Assembly: GCA_043797615.1 (NCBI GenBank)
Contig: JAZDPK010000035.1
Coordinates: 3,523 to 67,522, forward strand
Origin: Parcubacteria group bacterium
GTDB taxonomy: Bacteria; Patescibacteriota; Patescibacteriia; UBA11705; JABHMO01
Length of the DNA: 64,000 bases
Direction: 5' to 3'
A model generated the notes under the pieces. The model made no database searches, was not told the DNA's origin, and saw only the letters and a program-made list of their open reading frames with translations. This document shows, piece after piece, positions 1,097 through 54,550 of the stretch; position 1 is the first letter of the stretch, and every line of letters starts with the position of its first letter. The position numbers and the translations under genes were made by a program.

Positions 1097-2140
1097 ATGT
1101 TTGATATGCCTTCATTCAAAAAGCACATCATGATTTCCGCGGCGATTTTGATCGGACTAATCGCCGTCCTGGTTTTCGCTTGGTCGTATTTTTATTTTCA
1201 AAGCTTTGAAGTTAAAAATTTCCAGCTCGGCGTGAATTTTTCAAAAAGCTATTCCGAATATCTTGGTTTAGACTGGCAGAAAACTTATTTGGCCATTCTC
1301 GACGATTTGAAAGTGAAAAACGTCCGCGTATCCGCGCCCTGGAACGAGATCGAGCCGGCCAGCCTTGCCGGCAACGCTAGGCAGGCGCTCGGGCGCTGGA
1401 ATTTTACCGGCCTTGACTGGCAGGTGAAGGAAGCGGAAAAGCGGGGCGTCAATTTAATTCTGATTGTCGGCCGGCGCACGCCGCACTGGCCAGAGTGCCA
1501 TGATCCGGCTTGGATCAAGCCGCTGGCGCCGGAACTCGTAGCAGATCGGCAGATGGAAATGATCGCGGCGGTCGTTGATCGCTACAAGGATTATTCCAGC
1601 ATAAAAATCTGGCAGGTGGAGAACGAGCCGCTGCTCGACGTCTTCGGTAAATGCCCGCCAGGCGATATTGATCTTTTGCGCAAGGAAATCGCGCTGGTCA
1701 AAACGCTGGACAGCCGGCCGGTCATGATCACGGACAGCGGCGAAATCGGCGATTGGACCGCGGCGGCGAATATCGGCGACCTTTTCGGCACCACGCTCTA
1801 TCGCGTCACGCATAATCCGTTTTTGGGATATTTTTATTATCATTTGCCGCCTGTTTTTTACAATTTGAAAGCGCGGCTGGTCGGACAGCGCCCGAGCCGG
1901 GCGCTGATTTCCGAATTGCAGGCCGAGCCGTGGGCGCCGCAGGGCATACTGAACACTTCGCTTGAAAATCAGAAAATTTCCATGGATGCGCGGCGACTGG
2001 CCAGCCAGGCCGATTACGGCCGGCGAACCGGTTTTTCCGGCGCCTATCTCTGGGGCGCGGAATGGTGGTATTGGCTCAAGGAAAAGCAGAACGACGACAC
2101 CCTATGGAAGACGGCGAAAAACATATTTTTGAATTCATAG
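1097..2140 (+). CDS. Membrane-anchored clan GH-A glycoside hydrolase (beta-galactosidase/GH42-like)
   Basis: N-terminal TM; WNEIEP, WQVENEP (acid/base) and ISELQAEPW (nucleophile) motifs. Contains a 27-nt palindromic insertion at 1359-1385. Confidence 0.75.
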   Translation: MFDMPSFKKHIMISAAILIGLIAVLVFAWSYFYFQSFEVKNFQLGVNFSKSYSEYLGLDWQKTYLAILDDLKVKNVRVSAPWNEIEPASLAGNARQALGRWNFTGLDWQVKEAEKRGVNLILIVGRRTPHWPECHDPAWIKPLAPELVADRQMEMIAAVVDRYKDYSSIKIWQVENEPLLDVFGKCPPGDIDLLRKEIALVKTLDSRPVMITDSGEIGDWTAAANIGDLFGTTLYRVTHNPFLGYFYYHLPPVFYNLKARLVGQRPSRALISELQAEPWAPQGILNTSLENQKISMDARRLASQADYGRRTGFSGAYLWGAEWWYWLKEKQNDDTLWKTAKNIFLNS

Positions 2141-2172
2141 ATAATGTGCTATAATTTATTAAAGAAAATCAT

Positions 2173-2361
2173 ATGCTGCCGCCAAATCCCCGAAAAATCG
2201 GCGAGTGGGTAACGATTTCGGTCGTCGTTGTCATTGCGATCTTCGTCGTGATCATGCTGTTCGTAAATTTTGTTTCGGCGCCGAAATCCGACAACAGCGT
2301 TTTGCCGTCCGCGCCTGCCTTGCCGGCAGGCAGGCCGGCAAATTCCGCCGCCGGCAACTAA
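2173..2361 (+). CDS. Small membrane protein
   Basis: One TM; follows a TGCTATAAT -10 box; carries a 21-nt palindrome at 2314-2334. Confidence 0.5.
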   Translation: MLPPNPRKIGEWVTISVVVVIAIFVVIMLFVNFVSAPKSDNSVLPSAPALPAGRPANSAAGN

Positions 2362-2374
2362 AAAATATGAAAAT

Positions 2375-2977: not shown

Positions 2978-3106
2978 ACGCGAAACAACGCTAAACCAAA
3001 CCTGCCTGCTGGCAGGCGCAAAACAAACGCGAAACCCAAGAGAAACCATCTAGAGTAATTCAATCGTAAGTATAGGCGATTTATTTGCGAGCTCATATCC
3101 GGCGTC

Positions 3107-5517: not shown

Positions 5518-6270
5518 ATGAAATATCTAATCGCCAACTGGAAAATGAATTTGAACGAGGACGCGAGCTTGAATTTGGCGAAAAAATACAAAAAGCGGCT
5601 GAAAGGCTTTAAAAATTTGACGATAGTGATCGCTCCGGATTTGTTATATCTGAAGGAAATAAAGCAAGACTTGGGCAAATCAACGATCAAAGTCTGCGGC
5701 CAGAACGTGGCGGCAGAGGAAAAAGGCGCGTACACCGGCGAAGTATCAGCGCAGATGTTGAAAGAAATCGGCTGCGATTTCGCCATTGTCGGACATTCCG
5801 AGCGGCGGATAAATTTGAATGAAACGAGCGAACTCGTCAACAAAAAAATGAACCAGTGCTACAATGCCGGCCTGGTCCCGATCCTATGCGTCGGCGAAAC
5901 AATGGAGGAGCGGCTGAAGGGCCAGACCGAAGCGGTTTTGACGCGGCAGCTGCACGGCGCCTTGGGCAGGGTTAACGGCCTGCCGGAAAGCGATCTGTTC
6001 ATCGCCTACGAGCCGGTCTGGGCGATCGGCTCGGGGAAAAACATGGATCCATCCGAATTTCAAGCGGTTTACCGCATTATTAAAAGAGTGCTGAGCAGCC
6101 TGTTTTCGGAAAAATTTTACGAAGAAAAAGTCCGGCTGCTGTATGGCGGCAGCGTGAGCAGCATCAACGCGAAAGACTTTTGGATCGCGCCGCATATCCA
6201 CGGCCTGCTCGTGGCCACCGGCAGCCTGGAGATGGATGAGATGTATAATATCGCGATGCAAGCGGAATAG
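5518..6270 (+). CDS. tpiA: Triosephosphate isomerase
   Basis: ANWKMN, GHSERR, AYEPVWAIG, YGGSV. Confidence 0.95.
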   Translation: MKYLIANWKMNLNEDASLNLAKKYKKRLKGFKNLTIVIAPDLLYLKEIKQDLGKSTIKVCGQNVAAEEKGAYTGEVSAQMLKEIGCDFAIVGHSERRINLNETSELVNKKMNQCYNAGLVPILCVGETMEERLKGQTEAVLTRQLHGALGRVNGLPESDLFIAYEPVWAIGSGKNMDPSEFQAVYRIIKRVLSSLFSEKFYEEKVRLLYGGSVSSINAKDFWIAPHIHGLLVATGSLEMDEMYNIAMQAE

Positions 6271-7204: not shown

Positions 7205-8113
7205 ATGCTTTTCAATATTATTCTCATTTGCATTGTTGCGGTCTGCGTTTTTCTGATTGTTTTTATCGTTGCGCGCAAATTGCCGAAATTAAAGAGTCTG
7301 GACGTTGATACGGTGCCGGCGGCGCAGATCGCGAAAGTCCGCGACCGGATATTGCTCGATCGGATGAAGAGGCGGAGCGAGAAGGGCGGCGAACTCATCG
7401 CCAGGGCGGCGGCGCCTCTTTTCAGTGCGATCAAGCGGGCGGTCCAGAAATTGATTTTTAAAATTTACGCCTTGGAAAAAAGATACCAGCGCGAAGCGAA
7501 GATGAAGGCGAATCTGACCGGGCCGGAATTGGAAGACAACGTGCGCAGCCTCCTCGGCGACGCGGACCGGCGGATGAAAGCGGAAGAATGGCGCGAGGCG
7601 GAGAAAATCCTGATCGAGGCGGTCAGCCTTGACCCGCGCAGCATTCCGGCGTACAATGGGCTCGCGGAAATTTATTCGCGGCTGAAGGAATACAAGCAGT
7701 CGCTGCAGACGCGGCAATTCATCCTGAAGCTGGTGCTGAAGCAGAGCCGCGGCGCGGAAAAACAAGACGAAAACGGGGACGTGCGGACGGTTTACCCCAA
7801 TGCGGCGGAAGCGGCCGGCCTGCCTGCTCGCCTCCGCGAAGCGCTTCGGCGGAGCGGGGCCGGCAAGGCAGGCGCGTACAGCGATCTTGGCGACGTTTTC
7901 CGGCTGATGGACAAAAACGACAAGGCGCTGGAAAATTTCAAGCAGGCGCTCCGGATCGAGCCGAACAGCCCGCGCCACATTAACAAGATATTGGAAACGA
8001 GTATCGCTTTGAAAAACAAGACTTTGGCGCGGGAAATGCTGAGCCAATTGGAAAAAGCGAATCCGGAAAACCAAAAATTGAAAGAGTTTGCGGATAAAAT
8101 AAATGAACTTTAA
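7205..8113 (+). CDS. Membrane-anchored TPR protein
   Basis: N-terminal TM and TPR motifs (AYNGLAEIY, AYSDLGDVF). 54-nt palindromic insertion at 7819-7872. Confidence 0.8.
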   Translation: MLFNIILICIVAVCVFLIVFIVARKLPKLKSLDVDTVPAAQIAKVRDRILLDRMKRRSEKGGELIARAAAPLFSAIKRAVQKLIFKIYALEKRYQREAKMKANLTGPELEDNVRSLLGDADRRMKAEEWREAEKILIEAVSLDPRSIPAYNGLAEIYSRLKEYKQSLQTRQFILKLVLKQSRGAEKQDENGDVRTVYPNAAEAAGLPARLREALRRSGAGKAGAYSDLGDVFRLMDKNDKALENFKQALRIEPNSPRHINKILETSIALKNKTLAREMLSQLEKANPENQKLKEFADKINEL

Positions 8114-23653: not shown

Positions 23654-23745
23654 AATTAATATATCACGAAAAAGAACGAATTATCGCGAAAAATCACGAA
23701 TTACTTTAGATAATTTTGTCATGGCGAATTAGTGTGAATTCGTGT

Positions 23746-26415
23746 TTATTCGTGTGTTTCGTGAAGTGCTTTTTTAAGGTATCTTCCCGTCCAACTCGCT
23801 TTCACCCTGCTGACGTCTTCCGGCGTGCCGTATGCGATGATTTGGCCGCCGTTTTCGCCGCCTTCCGGACCCAGATCGATGATCCAGTCGCTGCACTTAA
23901 TGATATCGAGATTATGTTCGATTACCATGACCGTGTTGCCTTGCGAAACCAAACGCTGGATGACTGCCATAAGTTTTTTGATGTCGTCGTAATGCAAACC
24001 GGTGCTTGGTTCGTCCAGCATGTAAAGGGTTTTGGTCGTGCCGCGTTTGGCCAGTTCGCGGCTTAATTTCAATCTTTGCGATTCGCCGCCTGACAATGTT
24101 TTTGAAGATTGGCCTAATGTTAAATATTCCATGCCCACTTCGTTCAGCACTTTCAATTTGTCATGGATAAACGGAATATCTTTGAAAAATTTTTCCGCGT
24201 CTTCGATCGTCATTTCCAATATGTCGGAAATATTTTTATGTTTGTAATGCACTTGCAGAGTTTCTTTGTTGTATCTTTTTCCTTTGCAAACGTCGCATTT
24301 TATTTCAACGCTTGGCATGAAATGCATTTCGATTTCCAATGTGCCGCGGCCTTCGCAGTTCTCGCAGCGTCCGCCTGCCTGCCGGCCAGGCAGGCCCGGC
24401 CGATTGAAGCTGAACCGGCTGGCTTTGTAGCCGCGGATGCGCGCTTCTTCGGTCGAGGCGAATATTTCGCGAATATAATCGAACGCTTTCGTATATGTGG
24501 CCGGATTCGAGCGGGGAGAGCGGCCGATCGGGCTTTGGTCGATTTTGATTATTTTATCGATCAGTTCCGCGCCTTTAATTGAATCGTAATTTTTGTCAGC
24601 CAGATTGCGGCGGTCTTTCTTGTCGATGATCGCTTTGTACAGCACGTCGTGCATAAGCGTTGACTTGCCCGATCCGGAAACGCCGGTCAAGCAAACCAAA
24701 CGGCGGGTGGGAATTTCCACGCTTATGTTTTTCAAATTGTTTTCTTTTGCGCCTTTAATCTCGATTTTTAACGTGTTTTTATCCACTTTGCGTCGAGTTT
24801 TCGGCAATTCGATGTTAACTTCATGCCGCAAGTATTGTCCGGTCAAAGATGTTTTCGGATCGCCGGCGATTTCGCAGTCCATCGCTTTCGCTTGAACAAC
24901 TTTAGTGTTCAAAATGTTGGCAACCGGGCCGGAAAAAATTATTTTTCCGCCGTGAATTCCGGCCGCCGGCCCGATATCAACCAGCCAGTCGCTCGCCAGA
25001 ATGGTATTTTCATCGTGTTCAACAACGATTATCGTGTTTCCGATATCGCATAAATTGCGCAATGTTTTGATCAGCTGTTCATTGTCTTTTTGATGCAGAC
25101 CGATTGTCGGTTCGTCGAGAACATAGAGAGCGCCGACCAAGCGCGTGCCGACTTGCGACGCCAAGCGGATTCTCTGCGCTTCGCCGTTGGACATCGTGCC
25201 TGCTCTTCGATTCAAATTCAAATAATGCAGGCCGACGTTGAGCATGAAAAGCAATCTATTCTGAATTTCGCCCAGAATAACCTCGGTGATTTCCAATTCT
25301 TTCGGGGTTATTTTTGCCAAAAAATCGTTGAAAAAATCAATCGCTTTGGACACCGGCAATTCGGTTATCTGCCAAATGTTTTTATCGTTTACTTTAACGC
25401 TTAGCACGTCGTTGTTTAAGCGCTTGCCATGGCATTTTGGACAGACTTCATCGGAAAATAATTCTTTTGTGCCCAGACCGAAGCAATAATCGCAATAACC
25501 GTACGGACTGTTGAAACTGAAAAGCCGCGGTTCGATTTCCGGAAAGCTGTAGCCGTCGTTCGGGCAGGAATATTCCGTGCTGAAGATTTTTTCTTTTTTG
25601 TCCGGATAAACAACGGTGGCCAGGCCGTTCGCCAGCTCGATCGAATTTTCCAACGCTTCGGTCAGGCGCTGTCGAAATCCTTTATTGTCATTTAAATTCA
25701 TTGGATGCAAAAGCTGGATTTTGTCGATCACGATTTCTATCGTGTGTTTTTTGTTTTTATCGATGACAACGCGGTTTTTCAAGCTGTGCATTTTTCCGTC
25801 GATGCGCGCTTCCAGATAGCCGCTGTTATACGTGTCATATAGCATTTGGTAATATTCGCCTTTGCGGCCGCGGACGATCGGGCTTAAGACGATTAATTCC
25901 GCAGCATCTCTTGCCGGCCGACTTGTCTGCCGTAGTTTTAACGAAGGCAGGAGCGTTTGCGAAGGCTGGTTCTTTTGAGTTAAAATGTTTTCCATAACGC
26001 GTTCGACCATTTCGTCGATCGTTGTTTTTTCCAGCAGCTCGTCGCAAACAGGGCAGTGCGGCTTGCCGATTTTCGCGAACAACACGCGCATGTAATCGTA
26101 GATTTCCGTGATTGTGGCGACGGTCGAGCGGGGATTGGAAGAATGCGCTTTTTGGTCGATTGAAATGGCGGGCGACAATCCGGTGATGTCGTCGACGTTC
26201 GGCTTCTGCATGCCGCCGAGGAATTGCCGCGCGTAGGCGGACAAGCTTTCGATGTATCGGCGTTGCCCTTCGGCGAAGATCGTGTCGAACGCCAAACTTG
26301 ATTTTCCCGAGCCGGAAACGCCGGTGAACACCACCATTTTGTTCCGCGGAATTTCCAGATTGATGTTTTTCAGATTATGCTCGTGGGCGTTTTTGATTGT
26401 GATTTTATTTTCCAT
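23746..26415 (-). CDS. uvrA: Excinuclease ABC subunit A
   Basis: Two GVSGSGKS Walker A motifs, zinc fingers, LDEP motifs. Confidence 0.97.
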
Positions 26416-26780: not shown

Positions 26781-27560
26781 ATGAAAAAGATTGGTTTAAT
26801 CCGGCAAATCCATTCTGTTTTGTTTGATTTTGATGAATTGCTTTCCGAGTCGCGCAAGTTTCATGCGGATCATAAAGTGGATTGGGTGCGATTTCCGGAT
26901 AAAGTCGGCGTTGATCAAAAGACTGCCGACGCGATCAAGCGTCTGTATGATGAAACCGGCTGGAAGTTCGCGCGCATTTTTCCCGATGCCTTGGTTGGCC
27001 GTCCAAAAGTAAAAAATGGCCGGCTTATCCAACCGGCCGCGCATTATCCGGAATTTCACCGGCTGATGAGCGCCGGATACAATGGAACTTGGCAGTCGGA
27101 TAATTACAAAGAAGACGGCGGATTCGGCGGAAGCAATGATGAGCGCCGCGGATTGCGTTTGGTCATTACGGGCGAAAGTCAGGAGCTGAGTGGTGATCCG
27201 CTCTATAAACAGACGATCGGTCTTTCGGCTGATCAATTGACAGCTAAAGACAACATGCTGGCGCAATGGAAAAACAAGAAAAAGATTGCGCTGGGCGGAC
27301 TGTCCGAGTCCGAATATCTGTATTTTCAGCGCGTGTTTTTCGAAGAAACCGGCAAGCACTGGGACGTGAATTACTGGACTTGGCTTTTCGGCAGCCGGCG
27401 GTCGGCCTCTGCTTGCGCTACGGCTGGCAAGCCCGTCTCCGGCCGCGTTTCCTTTGGTTTTTGGTTTGCTTCGCACCTTGAGTTCTATTCCAGTGGCCAG
27501 GACTATCATTGTGGCAATCTCGGTTGCCGCCTCGCCGGTAGTTTTGTTTTAAAACAGTAG
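26781..27560 (+). CDS. Putative C-type-lectin-fold DGR target protein
   Basis: C-terminal WTW...SGRV...W........LGCRL signature with NNY-biased codons; GGAGG RBS before the ATG at 26781. Confidence 0.55.
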   Translation: MKKIGLIRQIHSVLFDFDELLSESRKFHADHKVDWVRFPDKVGVDQKTADAIKRLYDETGWKFARIFPDALVGRPKVKNGRLIQPAAHYPEFHRLMSAGYNGTWQSDNYKEDGGFGGSNDERRGLRLVITGESQELSGDPLYKQTIGLSADQLTAKDNMLAQWKNKKKIALGGLSESEYLYFQRVFFEETGKHWDVNYWTWLFGSRRSASACATAGKPVSGRVSFGFWFASHLEFYSSGQDYHCGNLGCRLAGSFVLKQ

Positions 27561-30256: not shown

Positions 30257-30265
30257 TGATTTTTA

Positions 30266-32367: not shown

Positions 32368-32548
32368 CATTATTCGTAAAAAAAGATCGGTCGATATGGG
32401 CCGGTCTTTTCAGTTGAATTCCGGCGGATAAAGTGCTATCATTAAATCAAATAATTAACCGTAAAAAAATATGGGAATGAGCCTTTCTCCAAGTTTAGAA
32501 TAGCCGAAAAAAACAGAGCAAAACATCGATCTTGGCCCTGTTTATGAA

Positions 32549-33307: not shown

Positions 33308-33855
33308 TTTTCCTGAGATGTCGGATTCTGAATCCCGCATATCATGTAATTTGCATTTATGTGACGCAGCGGGTTCAGAATGACATCTCTGGGTTTTTTC
33401 CGCTGTTATTCTTCCGTTAATTACCGGAGCTCGATTCAGGGCGGGGTCGGACAATTGTTTATCTCCGCTGTCACCCTGAACTTGATTCAGGGTCGGACAG
33501 TTGTATGATTAATGACTTATGAGAAGTTACAATTATTACGTTTATATAATGGCCAGCGACAGATGGACTTTGTACATCGGCGTGACAAACGATCTTGTCC
33601 GTCGAATAAGCGAGCATAAACTTAAATTAAGTCCCAAAAGTTTTACCGCGCGTTACAATATTCTGAAATTAGTTTATTACGAGCATTTTACAGATGTGAA
33701 TGCCGCTATTGCGCGCGAAAAACAATTGAAAAATTGGCGTCGCAAGTGGAAATTGGATTTGATAAAAGAAAACAATCCTGATTTTCTTGATTTAAGCGAT
33801 AAATTGCGTTAGTTCGTCGCGATGTCGGATCCTGAATCGAGTTCAGGATGACATC
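33240..33855. repeat. Cluster of TGTCAYCCTGAA...TTCAGGRTCSGACA palindromes flanking a GIY-YIG gene
   Basis: Copies at 33240-33284, 33317-33387 (inverted), 33469-33499 and 33821-33855 (inverted). Confidence 0.8.
33519..33812 (+). CDS. Small stand-alone GIY-YIG nuclease
   Basis: YYVYIMAS...LYIGVTNDLVRR..EH...FT.RY...LVYYE...AIAREKQLKNW.R.WK..LI...NP. Confidence 0.92.
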   Translation: MRSYNYYVYIMASDRWTLYIGVTNDLVRRISEHKLKLSPKSFTARYNILKLVYYEHFTDVNAAIAREKQLKNWRRKWKLDLIKENNPDFLDLSDKLR

Positions 33856-33911: not shown

Positions 33912-35009
33912 ATGAATATCGAAAATCTTTATGAAATTTTAACCGACCAGCCCGCGTACCGCATCAAGCAAGTCGAGCGCGCGGTGTTTTTCAATTTAAT
34001 CGAAAGCTGGGACGAAGCCACGGCCTTGCCGAAAGATTTGCGGCGGAAATTGAACGACGAAGTTGATTTGCAAATAAAAAATCAATTGTTCAAATCAAAA
34101 AAAGGCGATTCGCAAAAAGCGCTGATTGAATTCTCCGATGGAAGCAAAGTGGAAACCGTTTTGATTCGGCATAATGACGGTCCCCATACCAGCATAGACG
34201 CGGTACGGGGCAAGCGAAATACCGTCTGCGTTTCATCGCAAATCGGCTGTCCTCTGGACTGCGCGTTTTGCGCCACGGGGAAAATGGGATTTAAACGGAA
34301 TCTAACCAAAGAGGAAATAGTTGAACAAGTTTTGTTTTGGAATAGATTGTTACGAACGCAGTACCATGGTTCTTACTATGGAACTGAGGAAAAAAAAGAG
34401 CGGGACTGCTCGCCGGAGCTCGAAGAGCGTAGGCGGGTTTCCAATCTGGTGTTCATGGGCATGGGCGAGCCGTTTCTGAATTATGAAAACGTGATGAATG
34501 CGATAAAATTTTTAAATCGAAAAGAAATCTTCGGCATCGGCATGCGCAACATTTCCATTTCCACGATCGGCGTGCTGGAAGGCATTAAGAAATTCACCGA
34601 TGAAGATTTGCAAATCAATCTGGCGATTTCTCTGCACGCGCCGAACGATAAATTGCGAACCGAACTTATTCCGGCGAACAAAACTTGGCCGATAAAAAAA
34701 GTTTTAGCCGCTGTTGACGATTACATCGCCAAAACGAATCGCAAAGTGATGTTCGAATACATCATGATTAAAGACGTGAACGACAGCGACGCGGATGCAC
34801 GCGAACTGGCCGGGCTCATGAAAAAGAAATTGTACCTGGTGAACTTAATTCCGTACAATGAAACGGAAAAATTCCATTCCTCTTTGAATAAGCGTATTGA
34901 AAAATTCAAAAACATTTTGGAGCGCGCCGGAGTGAATGTTACAAGGCGCCGAGCGTTCGGGCAGGATATCGACGCGGCGTGCGGGCAACTGGTTACACGA
35001 CATTGCTGA
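33912..35009 (+). CDS. rlmN: Radical SAM RNA methyltransferase RlmN
   Basis: CVSSQIGCPLDCAFCATG, FMGMGEP, AISLHA, DIDAACGQL. Confidence 0.93.
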   Translation: MNIENLYEILTDQPAYRIKQVERAVFFNLIESWDEATALPKDLRRKLNDEVDLQIKNQLFKSKKGDSQKALIEFSDGSKVETVLIRHNDGPHTSIDAVRGKRNTVCVSSQIGCPLDCAFCATGKMGFKRNLTKEEIVEQVLFWNRLLRTQYHGSYYGTEEKKERDCSPELEERRRVSNLVFMGMGEPFLNYENVMNAIKFLNRKEIFGIGMRNISISTIGVLEGIKKFTDEDLQINLAISLHAPNDKLRTELIPANKTWPIKKVLAAVDDYIAKTNRKVMFEYIMIKDVNDSDADARELAGLMKKKLYLVNLIPYNETEKFHSSLNKRIEKFKNILERAGVNVTRRRAFGQDIDAACGQLVTRHC

Positions 35010-35247
35010 TGCGAATGAACGGAGAATGCGAATGCCGCCTGCCTTCGCCGAAGCGTAGCGCCGGCTACGCGCAGGCAGGCGAATGAAATCAATATAAGTA
35101 TTTTAATTCGCATCATTTGCATTGAGCAATATTCGCATCAATAATGATGTTTATCTGTATCGACAGCGGAATTTCACGCCGTTCTCTTTCATGTCAAATG
35201 TTACATATTCAACGGATTGTTTTTTGAAAATCAAGAAAGGAGAAAAA

Positions 35248-45721: not shown

Positions 45722-46351
45722 ATGTTCGGTTTATTCAAAAAAACAAAAAAGCAAGAAAACAAAAAAACAACGCCAAAACAAAATCAAAAACATGAACCGG
45801 AATTGTCGTCGAACGAAGTGCTGAACAGCATCGCGAAAATGCAGAAAGAGCTTGACCGGCTGAAGATGGCGATTTCGGCGCAAAGCAATTTTTCCCAATC
45901 CGAATCGACCGATCATATTTTAAAGAGCGCGCTTGAGGAAGTGCGGACGCGGGCGTCTTCGGCCGAGAAAAGCGGCAACGAGAAAGTGATCGAGGGCGTT
46001 TTTAACGGCGCGAGCATGGTGGGCGGCGACGGCATGGAATACGACGTACCGGCGAACTACGCGTCAAAGTCGAAATTGGTCGAAGGCGACATTTTGAAAT
46101 TGACGATCAACAACCTGGGCGCTTTCGTTTACAAGCAAATCAAGCCGATTGAACGCTTGCGGCAGATTGGCGTTTTAGAACAGGATCCGTTCAATCTGCA
46201 ATTCTTCGCCTCGTTGAACGGCAAGAAGTGGAAGCTCTTGACCGCCAGCGTTACTTATTTCAAAGGCGAACCGGGCGACGAAGTGGTGTTTTTGACGCCG
46301 ACGGAAAGCGGCAGCCGGTGGGCGGCGGTGGAGAACATTGTCAAGAAATGA
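45722..46351 (+). CDS. Conserved hypothetical protein
   Basis: IEGVFNG..M...DG..Y.VPANYASKSKLVEGD motif. Confidence 0.75.
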   Translation: MFGLFKKTKKQENKKTTPKQNQKHEPELSSNEVLNSIAKMQKELDRLKMAISAQSNFSQSESTDHILKSALEEVRTRASSAEKSGNEKVIEGVFNGASMVGGDGMEYDVPANYASKSKLVEGDILKLTINNLGAFVYKQIKPIERLRQIGVLEQDPFNLQFFASLNGKKWKLLTASVTYFKGEPGDEVVFLTPTESGSRWAAVENIVKK

Positions 46352-46690
46352 CGCTAAACAACCTGCCTTCGCATAAGCTACGGCAAGGCAAGCGCAAAAC
46401 TGAACCTGCCTACGCAAATGCTTCGGCAGGCAGGCGCAAAATTTACGCTAAACCATTAAGAAATAAAATCGAAAAAGGAGGATAACCGCCTCTTTTTCGT
46501 TCGTTTGATTTTTATGTTATTGTTTGGTAATATGGGAGCACGTGATTAACGGGATAAACCTGCCTGCTCGCCGTCGCGTAGCCGCTATGGCGGAGCACGG
46601 CCGGCAGGCAGGTGAGATTGGCTCGATTAAATAGTCTAGACAATCACGTTTATCGCGTTTATCTCATCTTTATTTTTTAGAATATTTTTT

Positions 46691-48382
46691 ATGTCCATAG
46701 CATTGTACCGCAAATACCGTCCAAAAACGTTTTCCGAAGTGACGGATCAGAATCACATCAAGATCACATTGCAGAATGAAATCGAAACCGGCAAGATCGC
46801 GCACGCCTATCTTTTTTGCGGGCCGCGGGGCACGGGCAAGACCACGCTCGCGCGGCTGGTCGCCAAAGCGGCGAACTGCCTGGACATCCAGCCGGGCGGG
46901 GAGCCGTGCAACAAGTGCGCGAGCTGCCTCGACATCCTATCGAATCGGGCGCTCGACGTCATTGAGATTGACGCGGCCAGCAATACGGGCATTGACAACG
47001 TGCGCGAGAATATCATCGGCAGCGTGCGCTTTACGCCGGCGAAAAGCAAATTCAAAGTATTTATCATCGACGAAGTCCACATGCTTTCGATCTTCGCGTT
47101 CAATGCGCTCCTGAAAACGCTGGAAGAGCCGCCGAAGCACGTCATTTTCATCCTGGCGACGACCGAGGCGCACAAAGTGCCGGCGACGATCATTTCGCGC
47201 TGCCAGCGGTTTGATTTTAAAAAAATAATCGTATCCAAATTGGCCGAGCGCCTGAAATGGATCGCCGGCCAGGAAGGCGTGAGCGTCGACGACAAAGTGC
47301 TCTTGCACATCGCCAAGCAGGCGGGCGGCTGCGTGCGCGACGCGGAGAGCCTGCTCGAGCAGGTTTTCTCCCTCGGCGAGAAGAGCATTTCGCTGGAGCA
47401 GGCCGAGCTGATCATCCCGAAATCGGATTACGACGCTTTGTTCAAATTTTTTAAGGCGCTGGCCAGGAAGGCGACGGGCAACGCCATTGACATCATTGCG
47501 AAGATGGCGGCGGACGGCCTGGACATCGCCCAGTTCACCGACGATTTCGTCGAGTTCGTCCGCAAAATTCTAATTTATAAAATCAGCGGCCGGCTGGAAG
47601 AGCTGGCGCGGGAAACGGATGAAACAGCGGTCAAAGCGATCATCGGCATTCTGCCGGAAGTGCCGGAAAAACAGCTGACCGACATGATTTCGAAATGCCT
47701 CGGCGCGAAGGAGCTTTTCAGGCAGAGCCACATACCGACTCTGCCGCTGGAAATGGCGGTTTTCGAATTGACCGAATCTTGCGGATTGGCGACGGCCCCG
47801 GATAAAATGAATTGTCCGGAGCCCGCGTTGGAAAAAACTGAAGAAAAAAAAATCAAATTCGCTGACAAGCCGGAACCCGCTGAAATGAAAGCCGTTGCCG
47901 CTGAAAAAGCGGAAATAAAATCGGAAACAGCTCAGGCCGAGCCGGCTGAGCCGGAAACATCGTTGCTTAAGGCGGAAATGATGAAAGATGAATTAACTCT
48001 GGAAAAAAATGAAAGTCTGTGCTATGCTGGCATTGTTGAAAAATGGCCGAGCCTTTTGAATAAAGTCAGGGAGAGAAACATGCCGCTTTACATGTCTTTG
48101 CGCATGTCCAAGCCGGTTGGCTTCGGCAACGGCAAGTTGAGCCTGGGATTTCTGTTTGATTTGCAGAAGCAGCGGGTTGATAATTTGAGCTGCCGGGCGG
48201 CGCTGCGAGAAATTCTGCGCGAAGTTTATTCATCGGAAATGGAAGTGGAAACAACGATCGACCATGGCCTGACTTTGGCGGATCTGCCGAACGGCAGCGG
48301 CCAGGCGGTGCGCCGGGATATTTCGCTGGACGAGTCGGTGAATGAATTGGCGAATGAGTTCGAGGGGGAGATAGTTGATTAA
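46691..48382 (+). CDS. dnaX: DNA polymerase III gamma/tau
   Basis: LYRKYRP, GPRGTGKT, EIDAASN, IDEVHML, SRCQ. Confidence 0.96.
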   Translation: MSIALYRKYRPKTFSEVTDQNHIKITLQNEIETGKIAHAYLFCGPRGTGKTTLARLVAKAANCLDIQPGGEPCNKCASCLDILSNRALDVIEIDAASNTGIDNVRENIIGSVRFTPAKSKFKVFIIDEVHMLSIFAFNALLKTLEEPPKHVIFILATTEAHKVPATIISRCQRFDFKKIIVSKLAERLKWIAGQEGVSVDDKVLLHIAKQAGGCVRDAESLLEQVFSLGEKSISLEQAELIIPKSDYDALFKFFKALARKATGNAIDIIAKMAADGLDIAQFTDDFVEFVRKILIYKISGRLEELARETDETAVKAIIGILPEVPEKQLTDMISKCLGAKELFRQSHIPTLPLEMAVFELTESCGLATAPDKMNCPEPALEKTEEKKIKFADKPEPAEMKAVAAEKAEIKSETAQAEPAEPETSLLKAEMMKDELTLEKNESLCYAGIVEKWPSLLNKVRERNMPLYMSLRMSKPVGFGNGKLSLGFLFDLQKQRVDNLSCRAALREILREVYSSEMEVETTIDHGLTLADLPNGSGQAVRRDISLDESVNELANEFEGEIVD

Positions 48383-48537: not shown

Positions 48538-48611
48538 TCGGGGATCGTCTAATGGTAGGACGCCTGGCTCTGGCCCAGGTAATCCTGGTTCGAATCCAGG
48601 TCCCCGAGCCA
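48538..48611 (+). tRNA. tRNA-Gln(CTG)
   Basis: TCGGGGA/TCCCCGA acceptor stem, CCTGG-CTCTGGC-CCAGG anticodon arm, GGTTCGAATCC, encoded CCA. Confidence 0.93.
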
Positions 48612-48763: not shown

Positions 48764-49039
48764 ATGTTGAGCAAATTTTTTTATGTTTATGTTCTTTTGA
48801 GTCTAAAAGATAAAAAGTTTTATATCGGTTTTACAAATGATGTTGAAAGACGGCTGCTTGAGCATCAGCGCGGTGAAAACGTGTCGACGGCTAAGCGATT
48901 GCCTGTAGCGCTTATTTATTTTGAAGCTTTCCAATCAAAGAAGGACGCACTACGCAGAGAAAGTTATTTTAAAACATCAAAAGGGAAAACAACTTTAAGA
49001 CAAATGATAAGAGAAAATTTGCATGATTTAAGTATGTAA
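48764..49039 (+). CDS. Small stand-alone GIY-YIG nuclease
   Basis: YVYVLLSLKD..FYIGFT.D..RR..EH..G...ST..R.P..LIYFE...DA.RRE.YFK. Confidence 0.92.
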   Translation: MLSKFFYVYVLLSLKDKKFYIGFTNDVERRLLEHQRGENVSTAKRLPVALIYFEAFQSKKDALRRESYFKTSKGKTTLRQMIRENLHDLSM

Positions 49040-51745: not shown

Positions 51746-51802
51746 GATTCAAAAAGCGCCTGCCTTTCGGCGCGGGCGCTTTTCATTTCGGAATGATTCG
51801 CT

Positions 51803-53161
51803 TTAGGCTCGGTCGATGTTCTTTTGAATTTTTTTGATTTCCTTCTTTTTTTCTTCAACGTCTTCGCTTAAATTCGTAAACTTTTTTTCCGCTTGCTTTA
51901 CCGCCTGATTTTTGCCGAAGCCGAGAACGCCGCGGCCGTGTTGGGCGTATTTTTTTTGCAGATCGACTTTGGCTTCGTCAAGCTGCTCGGACAAGTCGTC
52001 GAATTCGCGCATCGCCCGCTGCAAATCCATTTTCAATTCCTTCTTCAATGGCGATTCGCCGGCTTTGGCAGCCGGCTCGGCTTCAGGCGTATCTTCTTCA
52101 ATTTCAGAAGTGAGATCAATTGGTTGGGGCTGTTCGGCTTTTTTTGTTTTCGACGGGTTATCAACAACCTCTATTATATCCTCATCGTATAATTTCTCTT
52201 CGTCGTCGCTGACTTCCTCCAGCTTCATGTGCGTCAAGTCAAGAGGTTCGGTTTCTGTTTTGGATTTTTGGGCGGCCGGTTTTTTCAAAGGTTTTTCTCC
52301 CGTTTGTTTTTGGATGTCATTTATCTCAATCTCGTTTTTCTTGAATTCGGATTCATCCCAATTCAGATCCGCCATTAGATGCTTTTTTTTGTTTTCCAGC
52401 GCCATCAGTTGAAAATCGTCAGACATCTGTTGATCCGGTTTTTTCAACGCGGCGGCGAATATGAGTTTTTCCAGTTTTTTGTCCAAATCAACGATTTGTC
52501 TGCCAACGTTTTCCATTTCATGAGCGAGGATCATTTGCAGCCGGGCCAATTGAAACTGCTTGAAATGCAAATTTTCTTTTTTCCCTGTTTTAATGTTTTC
52601 GTTGATTTTCAGTTTGACGATTTCTTTTTCAAATTCATCGCATTGCTTCTGCCGCGATTGCAGATCCTTGTTTAATTTCACTTTTTTTTGCCCAAGTTCC
52701 ATTCTGTCTTTGAACGTATATCCCGCCTTTTTGTCTTCGATGTCTTCCGGTATTTTTTTTATTTCAGCCTGAATTTCCGCAATTTCGTTTTTCATTTTGT
52801 CAAAATGAGAAATTTTCCGGGCGAAGGCAATTTCATCGGCATGGTTTTTCACGATTTCGTTTTGCATGCCTTCGTATTTGTGCGACAAGGATTGGAAATC
52901 AGGATTGGGGGAAAGTAAAATTTCGTCTAAAGAAGCGGTTTGCACGAAGTTTTCCGGCAGCGGCGCCGATTCCAGCTTTGCCGATTCCAGTTTCGCCGAT
53001 TTCGGCTTTTTCGGCGCCGGATTTTCTTCGAAATTGATGTCTTGAATATCAATCAATTTGTCCGGTTCCGACAATTCGGGCATTGGCACTGATTTTAATT
53101 CCGGTTTTTTCGGCGCCGGCGCTTTTTCAAAAGGCTGAACGTTTAATTTTTCTCTTGGCAT
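51803..53161 (-). CDS. Charged coiled-coil hypothetical protein
   Basis: 452-aa K/E-rich ORF with short internal repeats (PAPKKP, SAKLE). Confidence 0.7.
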   Translation of the reverse strand: MPREKLNVQPFEKAPAPKKPELKSVPMPELSEPDKLIDIQDINFEENPAPKKPKSAKLESAKLESAPLPENFVQTASLDEILLSPNPDFQSLSHKYEGMQNEIVKNHADEIAFARKISHFDKMKNEIAEIQAEIKKIPEDIEDKKAGYTFKDRMELGQKKVKLNKDLQSRQKQCDEFEKEIVKLKINENIKTGKKENLHFKQFQLARLQMILAHEMENVGRQIVDLDKKLEKLIFAAALKKPDQQMSDDFQLMALENKKKHLMADLNWDESEFKKNEIEINDIQKQTGEKPLKKPAAQKSKTETEPLDLTHMKLEEVSDDEEKLYDEDIIEVVDNPSKTKKAEQPQPIDLTSEIEEDTPEAEPAAKAGESPLKKELKMDLQRAMREFDDLSEQLDEAKVDLQKKYAQHGRGVLGFGKNQAVKQAEKKFTNLSEDVEEKKKEIKKIQKNIDRA

Positions 53162-53335
53162 AAAAATTAAGTTAAAAATTATGTTATAAATATTATATCA
53201 AATTGACAGCATTTTGCTACTTTATGAAATTTATTATATCGTATGAATTTAACGTTGTCAATAGTTTGTTTAATTTTAGCCAGTTTTTATCCTTTCAATT
53301 TTGTTTTCAATAAGATATACTGTTGATATTCGCTT

Positions 53336-54550
53336 ATGAAAAGTATTTTTAACGCGCTCATCATCCATTACGATGAAATCGGATTGAAGGGAAGCAATCA
53401 GAATTTTTTTATTGGCAAATTGGCGGAAAACATCCGCCGCGTTGTTAGCGATAAAAACAAAATCCAAAAACGCGCTGCAAAGTTTGTTGTTTATCTCGAG
53501 AAAGAGTACGATGAAGCTTTGCTGGAAAAAGTTTTATTGATTCCGGGCATTGCCAACGCGTCGCCGGCGAAGATCGTTAAATCCGATTTAAATGAAATGA
53601 AAAAAGCCGCGTTGGAAATTTTTCAATTTTACAAACCGGCCGCATTTAAAATCGAAACGGTCCGGGCGCATAAAATTTTCCCGTTGAAATCGCCGGAAGT
53701 CAGCGCCGAAGTCGGCGGTTACATTTTGGAATCGGATAAAAGCGCGAAAGTGAAAATGAATCATCCGGATCTGACGATAAAAATCGAAATTGAAAAAGGG
53801 GAGACGGCGATTCTCGGTAAAAAACGTCAAGGCGTTGGCGGCTTGCCAGTGGGCGCGGCCGGAAAAATCGTTTGCCTTCTTTCGGGAGGAATTGATAGTC
53901 CGGTGGCGGCGTTCGAGCTGATGAAAAGGGGAGCCACGGTGGTGTTCGTTCATTTTCACAACAACACAATCAATAAAGCGGGCGTGGAAAGCAAGATTAA
54001 ACGTCTAGTTGCGCAACTTTCGAAAATCCAGGGCGAATCGGTTTTATACATTGTTCCGTTCGCCGAACTTCAAGCGAACGTCATTGCCAATGTCCAAGCC
54101 GACGCGCGCATGATCGTTTATCGCCGCTTGATGTTTAAAATCGCCGAGCGGATCGCGAAAAAAGAAAACGCGCTGGCGATCGCGACCGGCGACAGCTTGT
54201 CGCAAGTGGCGTCGCAGACTTTGGAGAATTTAAACGTTATTTATAACGCAACTTCGATGCTGAAATTGGCGCCGCTCATCGGCCGCAATAAATTTGAAAT
54301 AATGGATATCGCGAAAAAAATCGGCACGTATGACATTTCAATCGAGCAATACGCCGACTGCTGCAGCCTGCTGATCGCCCAGCATCCGGAAACGCGGGCA
54401 ACGGTCGCGGCGATTGAAAAAGCGGAGAGCAATTTGAATGTAGAGAAGATGATTGAGGAGGCGGTTGAATCGGCGCGGGGAATAATGATTACCCCACACT
54501 TGCCTGTCCGCCGTAGCTTCAGCGAAGGCGGAGAGTGTGGGAATGGCTGA
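53336..54550 (+). CDS. thiI: tRNA 4-thiouridine synthase
   Basis: Y.EI.LKG.N, THUMP domain, LLSGGIDSPVA, TGDSL.QVASQT, DCC. Confidence 0.93.
   Translation: MKSIFNALIIHYDEIGLKGSNQNFFIGKLAENIRRVVSDKNKIQKRAAKFVVYLEKEYDEALLEKVLLIPGIANASPAKIVKSDLNEMKKAALEIFQFYKPAAFKIETVRAHKIFPLKSPEVSAEVGGYILESDKSAKVKMNHPDLTIKIEIEKGETAILGKKRQGVGGLPVGAAGKIVCLLSGGIDSPVAAFELMKRGATVVFVHFHNNTINKAGVESKIKRLVAQLSKIQGESVLYIVPFAELQANVIANVQADARMIVYRRLMFKIAERIAKKENALAIATGDSLSQVASQTLENLNVIYNATSMLKLAPLIGRNKFEIMDIAKKIGTYDISIEQYADCCSLLIAQHPETRATVAAIEKAESNLNVEKMIEEAVESARGIMITPHLPVRRSFSEGGECGNG

What the first reader, a model, noticed from the sequence alone, without database searches (positions are those of the whole stretch)
1359..54532. 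A CCTGCCT...GGCAGG palindromic mini-element family inserted in frame into proteins
Seen directly: elements with shared termini and variable loops. Coding copies have lengths divisible by 3: 1359-1385 (27 nt, glycoside hydrolase), 2314-2334 (21), 7819-7872 (54, TPR), 24374-24394 (21, uvrA), 25910-25969 (60, uvrA), 27402-27431 (30, DGR target) and 54503-54532 (30, thiI tail). Removing them restores family motifs, e.g. UvrA FSFNRP[GLPGRQA]GGRC gives FSFNRPGGRC, GH WNEIEPALGRWNF, TPR AAGAYSDLG. Intergenic copies lie at 3001-3016 (16, partial), 35038-35079 (42), 46362-46392 (31), 46405-46434 (30) and 46559-46612 (54). Several of these are also multiples of 3, so frame selection is only suggested. 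The closest known parallel is the Rickettsia palindromic elements, which are typically longer. Inference: an active non-autonomous insertion system that adds peptides to protein loops; its mobiliser is unknown.
Basis: partly seen in the sequence, partly recalled or inferred. Interest (0 to 1): 0.85.

Follow-up and report, generated by a model that had tools for sequence, protein, structure and literature searches.

The report
Hairpin mini-elements, some translated inside proteins
This small bacterial genome carries about 70 copies of a short GC-rich hairpin DNA element that mostly sits between genes but sometimes lands inside genes and is read through as an extra protein loop, and the same 20-base palindrome turns up in many unrelated bacteria and some viral contigs.

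Summary
Termini CCTGCCT...AGGCAGG define 81 loci in the 1.11 Mb genome, against 12 and 14 in two controls. Size classes are 16-24, 30, 42 and 54 nt. All 12 listed sites belong to this family or a sister family.

Insertion is shown. The glycoside hydrolase (GH) insert is missing in 19 of 19 orthologues, the TPR insert in 19 of 19, and the UvrA zinc-site insert in 20 of 22. Against one fully fetched relative, 15 of 16 alignable coding copies are gapped. Short copies are multiples of 3 in 7 of 9 coding cases and 5 of 24 intergenic cases (p=0.005).

About three quarters of copies are intergenic. Copy 2314 lies upstream of the real start codon. The thiI and 27402 copies are marginal.

Elements insert without target duplication and often into hairpin or tRNA-gene loops. 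They are modular and nested.

The exact 20-mer is multi-copy in 65 of 201 genomes of the same class, in cultured Bacteroidota and in viral contigs. The mobiliser remains unknown: RAYT-like and GIY-YIG genes show only weak association.

In-frame REP-type palindromes, including in uvrA, are already published (PMC3733652). I file this as a new variant of a known kind.

The parts
1359..1385 (.). 27-nt diverged element inside the glycoside-hydrolase-like gene (1049-2140, +). It encodes ASLAGNARQA.
   Evidence: Sequence. A 9-aa gap at this place in 19 of 19 orthologues and in relative G002. The Pfam match to Glyco_hydro_42 is below the cut-off.
2314..2334 (.). 21-nt element CCTGCCTTGCCGGCAGGCAGG in the 5' leader of the DUF5667 gene. 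The true start is probably the ATG near 2375.
   Evidence: The alignment of 14 orthologues begins at MKIKILF, downstream of the element. The same 21-nt variant recurs at G000:C28:20180.
3001..3016 (.). 16-nt short form CCTGCCTGCTGGCAGG, 24 nt downstream of the stop codon of gene 2270-2977.
7819..7872 (.). 54-nt element of a second subfamily inside the TPR gene (7205-8113, +). It encodes GLPARLREALRRSGAGKAG.
   Evidence: An 18-aa gap in 19 of 19 orthologues and in G002. It folds as a hairpin at -17.2 kcal/mol, z = -1.3. Related copies lie at G000:C50:5575 and G000:C17:61700.
24374..24394 (.). 21-nt element in uvrA (23746-26415, -). It adds GLPGRQA just before the C-terminal CxxC of the FSFNRP|GGRCExC motif.
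   Evidence: The site is empty in 20 of 22 orthologues. At DNA level the element sits at CCGGG^CGG. It is a gap against PDB chain 2r6f_A. Hairpin -8.5 kcal/mol, z = -2.65.
25910..25969 (.). 60 nt in uvrA, made of one 30-nt element nested in the loop of another 30-nt element. It adds about 19 aa to a linker of variable length.
   Evidence: Dissected from the sequence: CCAGCCTTCGCAAACGCT^[CCTGCCTTCGTTAAAACTACGGCAGACAAG]^TCGGCCGGCAAG. Gaps in the orthologues and in 2r6f_A. It no longer folds as a hairpin (z = -0.09).
27402..27431 (.). Diverged 30-nt copy of the 31-nt subfamily, in an unverified ORF (26760-27560).
   Evidence: 24 of 30 bases match the C22 31-nt element (my own comparison). The ORF has no Pfam family and no G002 homologue.
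35038..35079 (.). 42-nt element, 29 nt downstream of the radical-SAM gene (33912-35009).
   Evidence: Hairpin -14.5 kcal/mol, z = -2.84.
46362..46434 (.). Two 30/31-nt elements in tandem (46362-46392 and 46405-46434), starting 11 nt after the stop codon of gene 45722-46351.
   Evidence: No Rfam family matches in 46300-46750.
46559..46612 (.). 54-nt element of the main subfamily, made of the 20-nt palindrome plus a 34-nt inner module. It lies upstream of dnaX (46691-48382).
   Evidence: One of 16 copies in this genome. Hairpin -20 kcal/mol, z = -3.19.
54503..54532 (.). Sister-family hairpin (arms TCCGCC/GGCGGA, loop GTAGCTTCAGCGAA) that forms the last codons and 3' end of thiI (53336-54550).
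   Evidence: The tblastn match to G002 ThiI ends at aa 387, before the element at aa 390-399.

Best explanation
These are REP-like, non-autonomous hairpin mini-elements.

Anatomy. The constant part is an 8-bp GC-rich stem (CCTGCCTG / CAGGCAGG). The loop varies and is itself built from smaller hairpin modules. The basic form is the perfect 20-nt palindrome CCTGCCTGCCGGCAGGCAGG. The 54-nt form is that palindrome with a 34-nt module in its loop. The 30-nt forms carry a TCGTTAAAACTNCG-type module that also occurs in a sister family with TCCGCC/GGCGGA arms.

Shown. Copies are inserted precisely, without target-site duplication. They are over-represented in unpaired places: loops of other hairpins, their own loop, and the D, anticodon and T loops of tRNA-gene fragments. 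Most copies lie between genes, many just after stop codons. Copies inside genes survive only if the frame stays open. There they are translated into short Pro/Ala/Gly/Gln-rich loops (typically xLPAGQAG) at places where orthologues and a solved UvrA structure have nothing.

Inferred. The element moves as single-stranded DNA that folds into a hairpin, and an enzyme that recognises structure rather than a long sequence copies it in trans. My odds for the enzyme are: HUH/Y1 RAYT-like transposase 0.3, small GIY-YIG nuclease with repair 0.15, something else or a host process 0.55.
For: Family is real: 81 loci against 12 and 14 in controls.

Insertions: GH gap in 19 of 19 orthologues and TPR gap in 19 of 19. 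UvrA zinc site empty in 20 of 22. Against G002, 15 of 16 spanning alignments are gapped at the element. Both UvrA inserts are gaps against PDB 2r6f_A.

Frame selection: short copies are multiples of 3 in 7 of 9 coding cases and 5 of 24 intergenic cases, p=0.0046. The 21-nt coding variants carry the extra base at different positions. The left arm is read C|CTG|CCT in 14 of 17 coding copies, p=5e-5. Only 20 of 81 loci lie in the 83% of the genome that is coding, p=1e-30.

No target duplication: flanking direct repeats of 2 nt or more occur at 11% of 161 sites against 10% in controls.

Precise filled and empty pairs: compared with the intact tRNA-Gln gene of contig C22, its fragments carry insertions of 43, 20, 30 and 32 nt at the 9/10 junction, D loop, anticodon loop 35/36 and T loop 56/57. 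A repeat unit in L042 gives another empty site.

Loop preference: a flanking inverted repeat of 6 bp or more occurs at 9.9% of sites against 2.7% in controls. Palindrome-in-palindrome nesting is seen in L056, L079 and L059, 30-in-30 nesting in uvrA, and the 34-nt module sits in two different loops.

Recent activity: the 54-nt subfamily has 16 copies here (7 identical to the query, 7 more with 1 mismatch), 1 in G006 and 0 in the other 39 relatives.

Candidate mobilisers: the genome has one IS200 and five RAYT-like genes. In relative G017 a RAYT above the NCBIfam cut-off (86.2 bits against 80) is flanked on both sides by hairpins that carry the palindrome in their loops. A profile of the RAYT-like genes hits 23 of 65 genomes with the palindrome and 20 of 136 without it (odds ratio 3.2, p=0.0015). 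GIY-YIG hits have a median of 6 against 4, p=3e-6.
Against: No enzyme is tied to the element. None of the six Y1 genes of this genome is flanked by it. None of the 11 Y1 loci fetched from four cultured Bacteroidota genomes is flanked by it either.

Pfam Y1_Tnp shows no association in the class sample: 40 of 65 against 75 of 136, p=0.45. With the sharper profile, 42 of 65 carrier genomes still lack a strong hit. That includes 10 of the 18 genomes with 8 or more copies, among them the one with 54 copies.

All association tests ignore phylogeny and genome size.

The element lacks the GTAG or CGTC tag of classical REPs: the flanks show only A at -1 (42%) and T at +1 (40%).

Nesting in hairpins holds for only about a tenth of the copies.

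Translation is inferred from open frames. There are no RNA, protein or read data, and no sequencing run was listed.

Gene calls are my own ORF-based ones. One 'CDS' call (2314) proved wrong.
Confidence: 0.7

Rival explanations
1. Break-repair capture. Structure-specific nucleases, such as the many small GIY-YIG proteins of these genomes, nick or cut hairpin loops and tRNA genes. Free hairpin oligonucleotides released elsewhere are then ligated in as filler. No transposase is needed.
For: Two tRNA-Gln loci hold a small GIY-YIG gene together with tRNA fragments loaded with the hairpins: G000:C22 and G014. GIY-YIG hit number rises with palindrome presence: median 6 against 4, p=3e-6, rho 0.34. 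A small GIY-YIG gene lies within 1 kb of 5 of 129 cross-phylum sites, 1 of 50 viral sites and 5 of 25 sites in relatives; the last count includes overlapping loci. Insertions are precise and lack duplications.
Against: Every genome has GIY-YIG through UvrC, so presence is uninformative. Copy-rich genomes can have few hits: 54 copies with 5 hits, 20 copies with 2 hits. Both features may simply gather in permissive spacers. Nothing explains how one 20-mer stays identical across phyla. The counts are not corrected for phylogeny or genome size.
Confidence: 0.15
2. Not mobile. The palindrome is a functional site, such as a terminator, an RNA stabiliser or a protein-binding or methylation site around GCCGGC, which selection creates and keeps independently at each place.
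For: Many intergenic copies lie 1-60 nt after a stop codon. The stem is GC-rich with a 4-nt loop. The sequence is exactly conserved across phyla.
Against: Coding copies are whole insertions relative to orthologues, not point-mutation products. Copies sit in tRNA-gene fragments and inside one another. A 54-nt composite reached 16 near-identical copies in this lineage alone. No consistent T-run follows the element. This reading can still explain why copies are kept, but not how they arise.
Confidence: 0.07
3. The coding copies are removed from the transcript or bypassed by the ribosome, so no extra peptide is made.
For: Hairpins at tRNA anticodon loops recall intron positions. Mobile GC-rich insertions in yeast mitochondrial genes are said to be bypassed in translation; this is my recollection and comes from no call.
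Against: If the copies were removed, frame would not matter. Yet 7 of 9 short coding copies are multiples of 3 against 5 of 24 intergenic ones, and one reading frame dominates, 14 of 17. The hairpin-laden tRNA pieces are fragments that lie beside an intact gene.
Confidence: 0.04
4. Assembly or library artefact.
For: Two contig ends lie in a 56-nt copy (C10 start, C27 end). The genome is a 73-contig assembly with 7.5% estimated contamination. No reads could be examined.
Against: The same 20-mer is multi-copy in cultured isolates and in assemblies from many projects: 49, 39, 8, 6 and 1 copies with 0 control hits. Coding copies are in frame, diverged and nested. The reversed control pattern hits 1 of 201 genomes against 65.
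Confidence: 0.02

Closest known systems
REP / BIME elements and their RAYT (TnpA-REP, HUH Y1) transposases, including intragenic REPs
   Same: Both are 20-40 nt GC-rich imperfect or perfect palindromes present in tens of copies. Both lie mostly just downstream of ORFs, have stems with variable loops, and make no target duplication. Occasional copies sit in frame inside genes. PMC3733652 (passages read) lists REPs inside uvrA, uvrB and other repair genes and argues that they sit in linkers or loops.
   Different: There is no GTAG or CGTC tag. The elements do not flank the RAYT-like genes of this genome. Association with Y1 genes is weak or absent. The same exact 20-mer is multi-copy in many phyla and in viral contigs. 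PMC3733652 describes REP families as ranging from species-specific to shared by distant organisms (passage), and PMC6006769 reports the suggestion that RAYT genes co-evolve with their own REPs (passage). The modular nesting of hairpins in hairpin loops is prominent here.
Rickettsia palindromic elements (RPE)
   Same: Palindromic elements inserted in frame into protein genes, adding peptide segments, with copies also between genes. According to PMC3733652, intragenic repeats of R. conorii correspond to RPE-4 and RPE-6 (passage).
   Different: That paper calls the RPE-1 insertions longer (passage). That RPE-1 measures roughly 100-150 nt and is confined to Rickettsia is my recollection. Here the units are 16-54 nt, mostly intergenic, and shared across phyla. 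No sequence comparison with RPEs was run.
IS200/IS605 elements and their palindrome-associated derivatives (PATEs)
   Same: Single-strand hairpin ends and insertion without duplication. One IS200 copy is present in this genome.
   Different: The IS200 copy has other hairpins at its ends. No TnpB was found. No conserved target tetranucleotide lies next to the element.
MITEs (for example Correia, Nezha)
   Same: Small non-autonomous repeats with inverted termini.
   Different: MITEs make target-site duplications and derive from DDE insertion sequences (recalled). No duplication is seen here, and no full-length parent with these termini turned up among the 118 cross-phylum loci.
Palindromic GC-rich repeats of organelle genomes (green-algal mitochondria and plastids, fungal mitochondria)
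   Same: Short GC-rich hairpin repeats that spread in AT-richer genomes. One repeat can be shared by unrelated genomes, without a known mobiliser (abstracts only, PMC7235400 and PMC4524435).
   Different: Different sequences and hosts. This is a resemblance only; nothing was tested.

Membership tests
REP (repetitive extragenic palindrome) with REPtron organisation | Short (20-40 nt) palindromic unit, many copies, predominantly extragenic and downstream of ORFs | tested here: met
   81 loci against 12 and 14 in controls. 57 are intergenic, many of them 1-60 nt after a stop codon.
REP (repetitive extragenic palindrome) with REPtron organisation | Conserved GTAG (or CGTC) tetranucleotide at one end of the hairpin | tested here: not met
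   Flank composition at 161 sites shows only A at -1 (42%) and T at +1 (40%), with no tetranucleotide tag. GTAG occurs inside some loops only.
REP (repetitive extragenic palindrome) with REPtron organisation | A RAYT gene flanked by copies of its own REP | tested here: not met
   None of the IS200 and five RAYT-like genes of G000 is flanked by the element. One RAYT in relative G017 is flanked by hairpins that hold the palindrome in their loops. None of 11 Y1 loci from four Bacteroidota genomes is flanked by it.
REP (repetitive extragenic palindrome) with REPtron organisation | Co-occurrence of element and RAYT across genomes | tested here: inconclusive
   PF01797: 40 of 65 against 75 of 136, p=0.45. 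RAYT-like profile A1: 23 of 65 against 20 of 136, p=0.0015, not phylogeny-corrected, and 10 of 18 copy-rich genomes lack it.
Rickettsia palindromic elements | In-frame insertion into ORFs that stay open, absent from orthologues | tested here: met
Rickettsia palindromic elements | Sequence relatedness to RPE families and occurrence in Rickettsia | not tested
   No RPE sequence was available from a tool. The hosts found here are other phyla.
MITE | Target-site duplication flanking terminal inverted repeats | tested here: not met
   Direct repeats of 2 nt or more at 11% of sites against 10% in controls. Precise 20-nt insertions without duplication.
IS200/IS605-derived PATE | Hairpins matching the ends of a resident IS200/IS605 and a fixed target tetranucleotide 5' of the insertion | tested here: not met
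   The resident IS200 has unrelated hairpins. No fixed flank. No TnpB.
Known RNA families (Rfam 15) | Match to a curated covariance model | tested here: not met
   Only three tRNA matches in the window at gathering score. Nothing at E up to 1 in 46300-46750.

The most novel reading that the evidence does not exclude
A structure-directed copy-and-paste process, not tied to any recognised transposase, inserts stable GC-rich DNA hairpins without target duplication into unpaired loops: other hairpins, its own loop, tRNA-gene loops. It operates in many bacterial phyla and on viral DNA with the same 20-nt palindrome. The palindrome would then be a pan-bacterial selfish hairpin, or the footprint of an undescribed and widely shared enzyme, which as a by-product seeds new surface loops in conserved proteins such as UvrA.
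Probability: 0.3. Interest if true: 0.85.

Novelty: new variant of a known kind. Interest (0 to 1): 0.64.

Why it matters
Short palindromes that enter genes in frame are a source of new protein loops. Here they can be dated and compared site by site, because orthologues, a solved UvrA structure and near-identical sister copies are all at hand.

The wider point is the reach of one exact 20-mer. It is multi-copy in small genomes of this class, in cultured Bacteroidota (49 and 39 copies in two isolates), in several other phyla and in viral contigs. It has no flanking transposase and at best a weak link to RAYT genes.

If a dedicated enzyme exists, it is widespread and unrecognised. If none exists, hairpins can spread by a general host process. 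Either answer bears on the long-open question of how REP-like repeats lacking a cognate transposase move; PMC3733652 states that question for CGTC REPs. The cultured carriers make it testable at the bench.

On the practical side, these elements break assemblies and mislead start-codon and ORF calls.

Tried and rejected
Rfam: the window at gathering score gave only tRNAs, and 46300-46750 at E up to 1 gave nothing. I had suspected an SRP RNA upstream of dnaX; none was found.

Sequencing runs: none was listed for window 23700-27700, so there was no read-level check and read laying was not used.

A shared neighbouring gene: all-against-all blastp of ORFs of 90 aa or more from the 118 cross-phylum loci gave no cluster present in more than 6 loci.

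Nucleotide-level empty sites between congeners: blastn of 19 palindrome sites from G010, G013, G014 and G015 against the whole of G002 gave no alignment spanning a site.

Y1 genes as neighbours: none is flanked by the element in G000, and none of the 11 loci from Bacteroidota isolates is. TnpB (PF07282) was not found in G000.

PF01797 association: it looked positive in 41 relatives (22/2/9/8, my count) but vanished in the class sample (p=0.45). I read the first result as an effect of relatedness.

Terminus integrity of coding against intergenic copies: no difference (0.29 against 0.24 mismatches, p=0.70). The test is biased because detection required at most 1 mismatch.

DGR: no direct repeat of 40 nt or more in 26400-33500, and no reverse transcriptase family among the eight ORFs scanned. 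I did not search the whole genome for a reverse transcriptase.

Literature: the exact 20-mer occurs in no paper of the library. 'repetitive extragenic palindromic' with 'Patescibacteria' gave one irrelevant paper. Four other word searches gave nothing on this element. Supplementary files were not opened. Additional files 3 and 4 of PMC3733652 (the lists of intragenic REPs and of REPtrons) could hold a related family.

I considered a DNA-uptake sequence and rejected it, because there are far too few copies and they arise by insertion. I noticed a resemblance of the loop GCTACGGCAGGCAGG to a 16S rRNA segment that I recalled; I did not pursue it.

No structure prediction, complex prediction or large protein-database search was run.

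Full report
WHAT IS THERE. The window is G000:C8:3523-67522 of a 1.113 Mb, 73-contig, 45.9% GC genome. The small size, a DUF5667 gene and the named relatives of the element fit a Patescibacteria/CPR-type bacterium, but that is inference.

An exact search for CCTGCC...GGCAGG pairs showed clear size classes:
- a perfect 20-nt palindrome, CCTGCCTGCCGGCAGGCAGG;
- 21-nt variants;
- 16-, 18- and 24-nt forms;
- a 30-nt class with a variable interior;
- a 42-nt form;
- a 54-nt class.

With termini CCTGCCT and AGGCAGG (at most one mismatch in total, gap up to 75 nt) I found 146 pairs merging to 81 loci. The reversed termini gave 14 pairs (12 loci) and the swapped termini 15 pairs (14 loci). Roughly 65-70 loci are therefore real. 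Some of the 81 are chance hits or belong to another hairpin type (ATTACCCCTGCC...GGCAGGGGTAAT). Two contig ends (C10 start, C27 end) lie in the same 56-nt copy, so that copy is counted twice and the element breaks the assembly. The units fold as hairpins with z-scores from -2.1 to -3.2, apart from the TPR copy (-1.3) and the decayed nested uvrA copy (-0.09).

THE CODING COPIES ARE INSERTIONS.
- UvrA (23746-26415, minus strand) was aligned with 22 orthologues from relatives. The motif FSFNRP|GGRCExC is uninterrupted in 20 of 22. G000 has GLPGRQA there. Two others (L014, L029) carry unrelated, non-palindromic inserts in the same loop. At DNA level the 21-nt element lies at CCGGG^CGG.
- The second uvrA insert (60 nt) is a 30-nt element sitting in the loop of another 30-nt element, in a linker of variable length.
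- Both uvrA inserts are gaps against the solved UvrA chain 2r6f_A.
- The GH insert (9 aa) is absent in 19 of 19 orthologues, and the TPR insert (18 aa) in 19 of 19.

I then fetched one relative, G002, completely and compared all 19 coding copies of G000 with it. Sixteen gave an alignment spanning the site, and 15 of those 16 have a gap at the element. The exception (C37) has a loop of equal length in G002. Three did not span: C66, the ORF holding 27402, and the thiI tail.

Copy 2314 lies upstream of the conserved start of the DUF5667 gene, so it is a leader copy.

THE FRAME IS UNDER SELECTION. By my own ORF-based gene calls (1059 genes, 82.9% coding), 57 loci are intergenic, 20 lie in ORFs and 4 straddle an ORF edge. 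Twenty of 81 is far below 83% (p=1e-30).

Among short copies (26 nt or less), 7 of 9 coding ones are multiples of 3, against 5 of 24 intergenic ones (p=0.0046; I made the lists by hand). Intergenic copies are mostly the 20-nt palindrome. Coding copies are mostly 21 nt, and the extra base sits at a different place in or near the loop in each. That points to independent frame-saving variants.

Two 20-nt copies do lie in open, well-conserved genes: a DHH-type phosphoesterase and the GTPase Der, names I gave from motifs seen in the translations. Their frames stay open and G002 shows gaps of 8 and 12 aa, so the net change there is a multiple of 3 by other means.

The peptides are similar to one another: DLPAGKAG, GLPAGQAG, GLPTGQAG, HLPAGQAG, SLPAGRQA, GLPGRQA, DLPAQAG and so on. 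The left arm is read C|CTG|CCT (Leu-Pro) in 14 of 17 copies (p=5e-5). The right arm is read as QAG or KAG in 12 of 17 (p=0.003). The palindrome has no stop codon in any frame, and the favoured frame avoids cysteine; both follow from the sequence itself.

This pattern argues that the copies are translated, not removed. There are no RNA or protein data, and no sequencing run was listed.

HOW THEY INSERT. At 161 distinct sites of the exact 20-mer in public contigs there is no target duplication: direct repeats of 2 nt or more occur at 11% of sites against 10% in controls. The only flank signal is A at -1 (42%) and T at +1 (40%).

Precise filled and empty pairs exist. In G000 contig C22 an intact tRNA-Gln(UUG) gene lies beside fragments of itself and a small GIY-YIG gene. 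Compared with the intact gene, the fragments carry exact insertions at four places:
- 43 nt at the 9/10 junction;
- 20 nt (the palindrome) in the D loop;
- 30 nt (two TCCGCC..GGCGGA hairpins) between anticodon-loop positions 35 and 36;
- 32 nt in the T loop between positions 56 and 57.

In relative G014 the palindrome sits at the same 35/36 position of two tRNA-Gln fragments, again next to a small GIY-YIG gene I recognised by eye and beside an intact tRNA-Gln. A repeat unit in L042 gives another empty site.

Flanking inverted repeats of 6 bp or more within 8 nt occur at 9.9% of sites against 2.7% in controls, and those of 7 bp or more at 5.6% against 0.7%. Nesting inside other hairpins is therefore enriched but concerns a minority of copies. 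Palindrome-in-palindrome cases are seen in L056, L079 and L059.

THE FAMILY IS MODULAR. The 54-nt element equals the palindrome with a 34-nt module inserted after position 8. The same module also sits in the loop of a TPR-type element at G000:C17:61700-61830.

A sister family with arms TCCGCC/GGCGGA has 31 members in G000 against 6 and 11 in controls, 20 in G002 and 32 in the cross-phylum loci. It shares the loop module TTCGTTAAAACTNCGG with the 30-nt class. The thiI-tail copy is of this sister type.

The 54-nt subfamily has 16 copies in G000 (7 identical to the query, 7 with one mismatch), 1 in G006 and none in the other 39 relatives. That indicates a recent local burst.

DISTRIBUTION. The 20-mer (at most 1 mismatch) occurs in 24 of 41 relatives, with 0 hits for the reversed control. 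In an even sample of the class it occurs in 65 of 201 genomes, with up to 54 copies per genome of about 1 Mb; the control hit 1 of 201. The pattern is patchy among families.

The record titles name Patescibacteria groups, Bacteroidota, Omnitrophota, Planctomycetota, Bdellovibrionales, Gamma- and Deltaproteobacteria, Thermodesulfovibrio and Chloroflexi. My own arithmetic gives a chance expectation of about 0.5 for 596 billion bases at equal base frequencies.

Five Bacteroidota genomes, among them the cultured Longitalea luteola, Flavivirga sp., Flagellimonas yonaguniensis and Winogradskyella echinorum plus one Flagellimonas assembly labelled MAG, hold 49, 39, 6, 1 and 8 copies respectively (at most 2 mismatches), with 0 control hits. 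Thirty-five stretches of viral contigs hold it, one contig at least six times. The flanks are unrelated.

THE MOBILISER.
- Y1 genes in G000. The genome has one IS200 transposase and five RAYT-like Y1 genes. NCBIfam's best hit for the four scanned is REP-associated tyrosine transposase, at 41.8 to 73.3 bits, below the 80-bit cut-off; the C29 copy was found by tblastn and not scanned. None is flanked by the element. One of them (C60) is flanked by different, GTAG-tagged hairpins. Three carry motifs like subclass 2.4 of PMC6006769, NH[IFV]H, WQ, YIxNNP (passages read; alignment).
- The G017 case. In G017 a RAYT above the cut-off (86.2 bits) is flanked on both sides by hairpins CAGCGGAGAGA[..]TCTCTCCGCTG that hold the palindrome in their loops. 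One of them has a (CTTG)8 expansion. This may be a true REPtron, or it may be palindromes inserted into that RAYT's own REPs.
- Association tests. Pfam Y1_Tnp is not associated with the palindrome in the class sample: 40 of 65 against 75 of 136, p=0.45. That model missed one of the RAYT-like genes of G000. A profile of four RAYT-like proteins gives 23 of 65 against 20 of 136 (odds ratio 3.2, p=0.0015), but 10 of 18 genomes with 8 or more copies lack a strong hit.
- GIY-YIG. Hit numbers are higher in carriers, median 6 against 4, p=3e-6. Small GIY-YIG genes lie within 1 kb of 5 of 129 cross-phylum sites.
- Caveats. None of these tests corrects for relatedness or genome size. Y1 loci of Bacteroidota isolates are not flanked by the element. 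No gene recurs next to the palindrome in more than 6 of 118 loci.

WHAT IS KNOWN. PMC3733652 (abstract and passages) describes GTAG- and CGTC-tagged REP families. It reports that REPs lie mainly downstream of ORFs and that REPs also occur inside genes, many of them replication and repair genes including uvrA and uvrB. It equates some of these with Rickettsia RPE-4 and RPE-6, and it states that CGTC REPs lack a dedicated transposase.

In-frame palindromes in uvrA are therefore not new as a kind. What I did not find in print (supplements not opened) is threefold: this untagged palindrome, its multi-copy presence across phyla and in viral contigs, and the modular loop-in-loop nesting.

VERDICT. 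The mechanism is inferred, not shown. I file it as a new variant of a known kind, with moderately high interest because of the cross-phylum identity and the missing mobiliser.

Noticed in passing
G000:C22:5380-6420 (outside the window): A tRNA-Gln(UUG) locus. An intact gene (5774-5845, minus strand) lies beside tandem 126-nt partial copies, a small GIY-YIG gene (5897-6094, minus strand) and a 5' fragment. The fragments carry four kinds of precise hairpin insertion in cloverleaf loops. A similar tRNA-Gln/GIY-YIG arrangement is in G014 (L315:1440-2220).
   Followed up: partly
window 30008-30256 (-), 33519-33812 (+), 48779-48988 (+): Three small stand-alone GIY-YIG genes (70-97 aa, Pfam E from 1e-15 to 1e-16). 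Two lie directly beside tRNA genes: one between tRNA-Ser 29909-30005 and tRNA-Tyr 30266-30351, the other after tRNA-Gln 48538-48611. The genome has 8 matches at or above the Pfam cut-off, one of them UvrC.
   Followed up: partly
window 23746-26415 (-): Apart from the two inserts, this UvrA lacks about 100 residues relative to PDB 2r6f_A: query residue 326 aligns to chain residue 313 and query residue 318 to chain residue 417. Its orthologues have open frames of about 845-920 aa. A second, longer UvrA-like gene lies at G000:C35:45006-47882.
   Followed up: no
G000:C60:1157-1735 and flanks: A RAYT-like gene flanked on both sides by its own hairpins (CGACTTCAGTCG and CCGACTAAAGTCGG followed by GTAG). 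This looks like a classical REPtron unrelated to the palindrome family.
   Followed up: no
G000, several contigs (e.g. C18:436, C23:4204, C53:8167, C9:56065, C35:2872): Another hairpin type with the outer arms ATTACCCCTGCC...GGCAGGGGTAAT, picked up by the terminus search.
   Followed up: no
G000 genome-wide: The perfect palindrome TGTTTCACGTGAAACA recurs at least 8 times and GGGCGAATAAT/ATTATTCGCCC at least 6 times, among 412 perfect hairpins (stem of 8 or more, loop of 6 or less) against 100 in block-shuffled sequence. These may be operator-like sites.
   Followed up: no
many genomes: The commonest one-base variant of the palindrome is G8>A, equivalently C13>T on the other strand. It lies at the outer base of the central GCCGGC and turns a G-C pair into G-T on one strand. 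It could be a methyl-cytosine deamination hotspot or a strand-specific tolerated wobble.
   Followed up: no
L162:2480-2600 (G017:C3): The left arm of one palindrome copy is expanded to (CTTG)8, and G000:C38:29689 has three CCTG units on one side. The arms therefore behave as tetranucleotide repeats prone to slippage.
   Followed up: no
L297, L304, L305 (one 29.5 kb viral contig): At least six exact copies of the palindrome in one contig of about 60% GC, embedded in two larger repeated contexts. The gene content was not examined.
   Followed up: no
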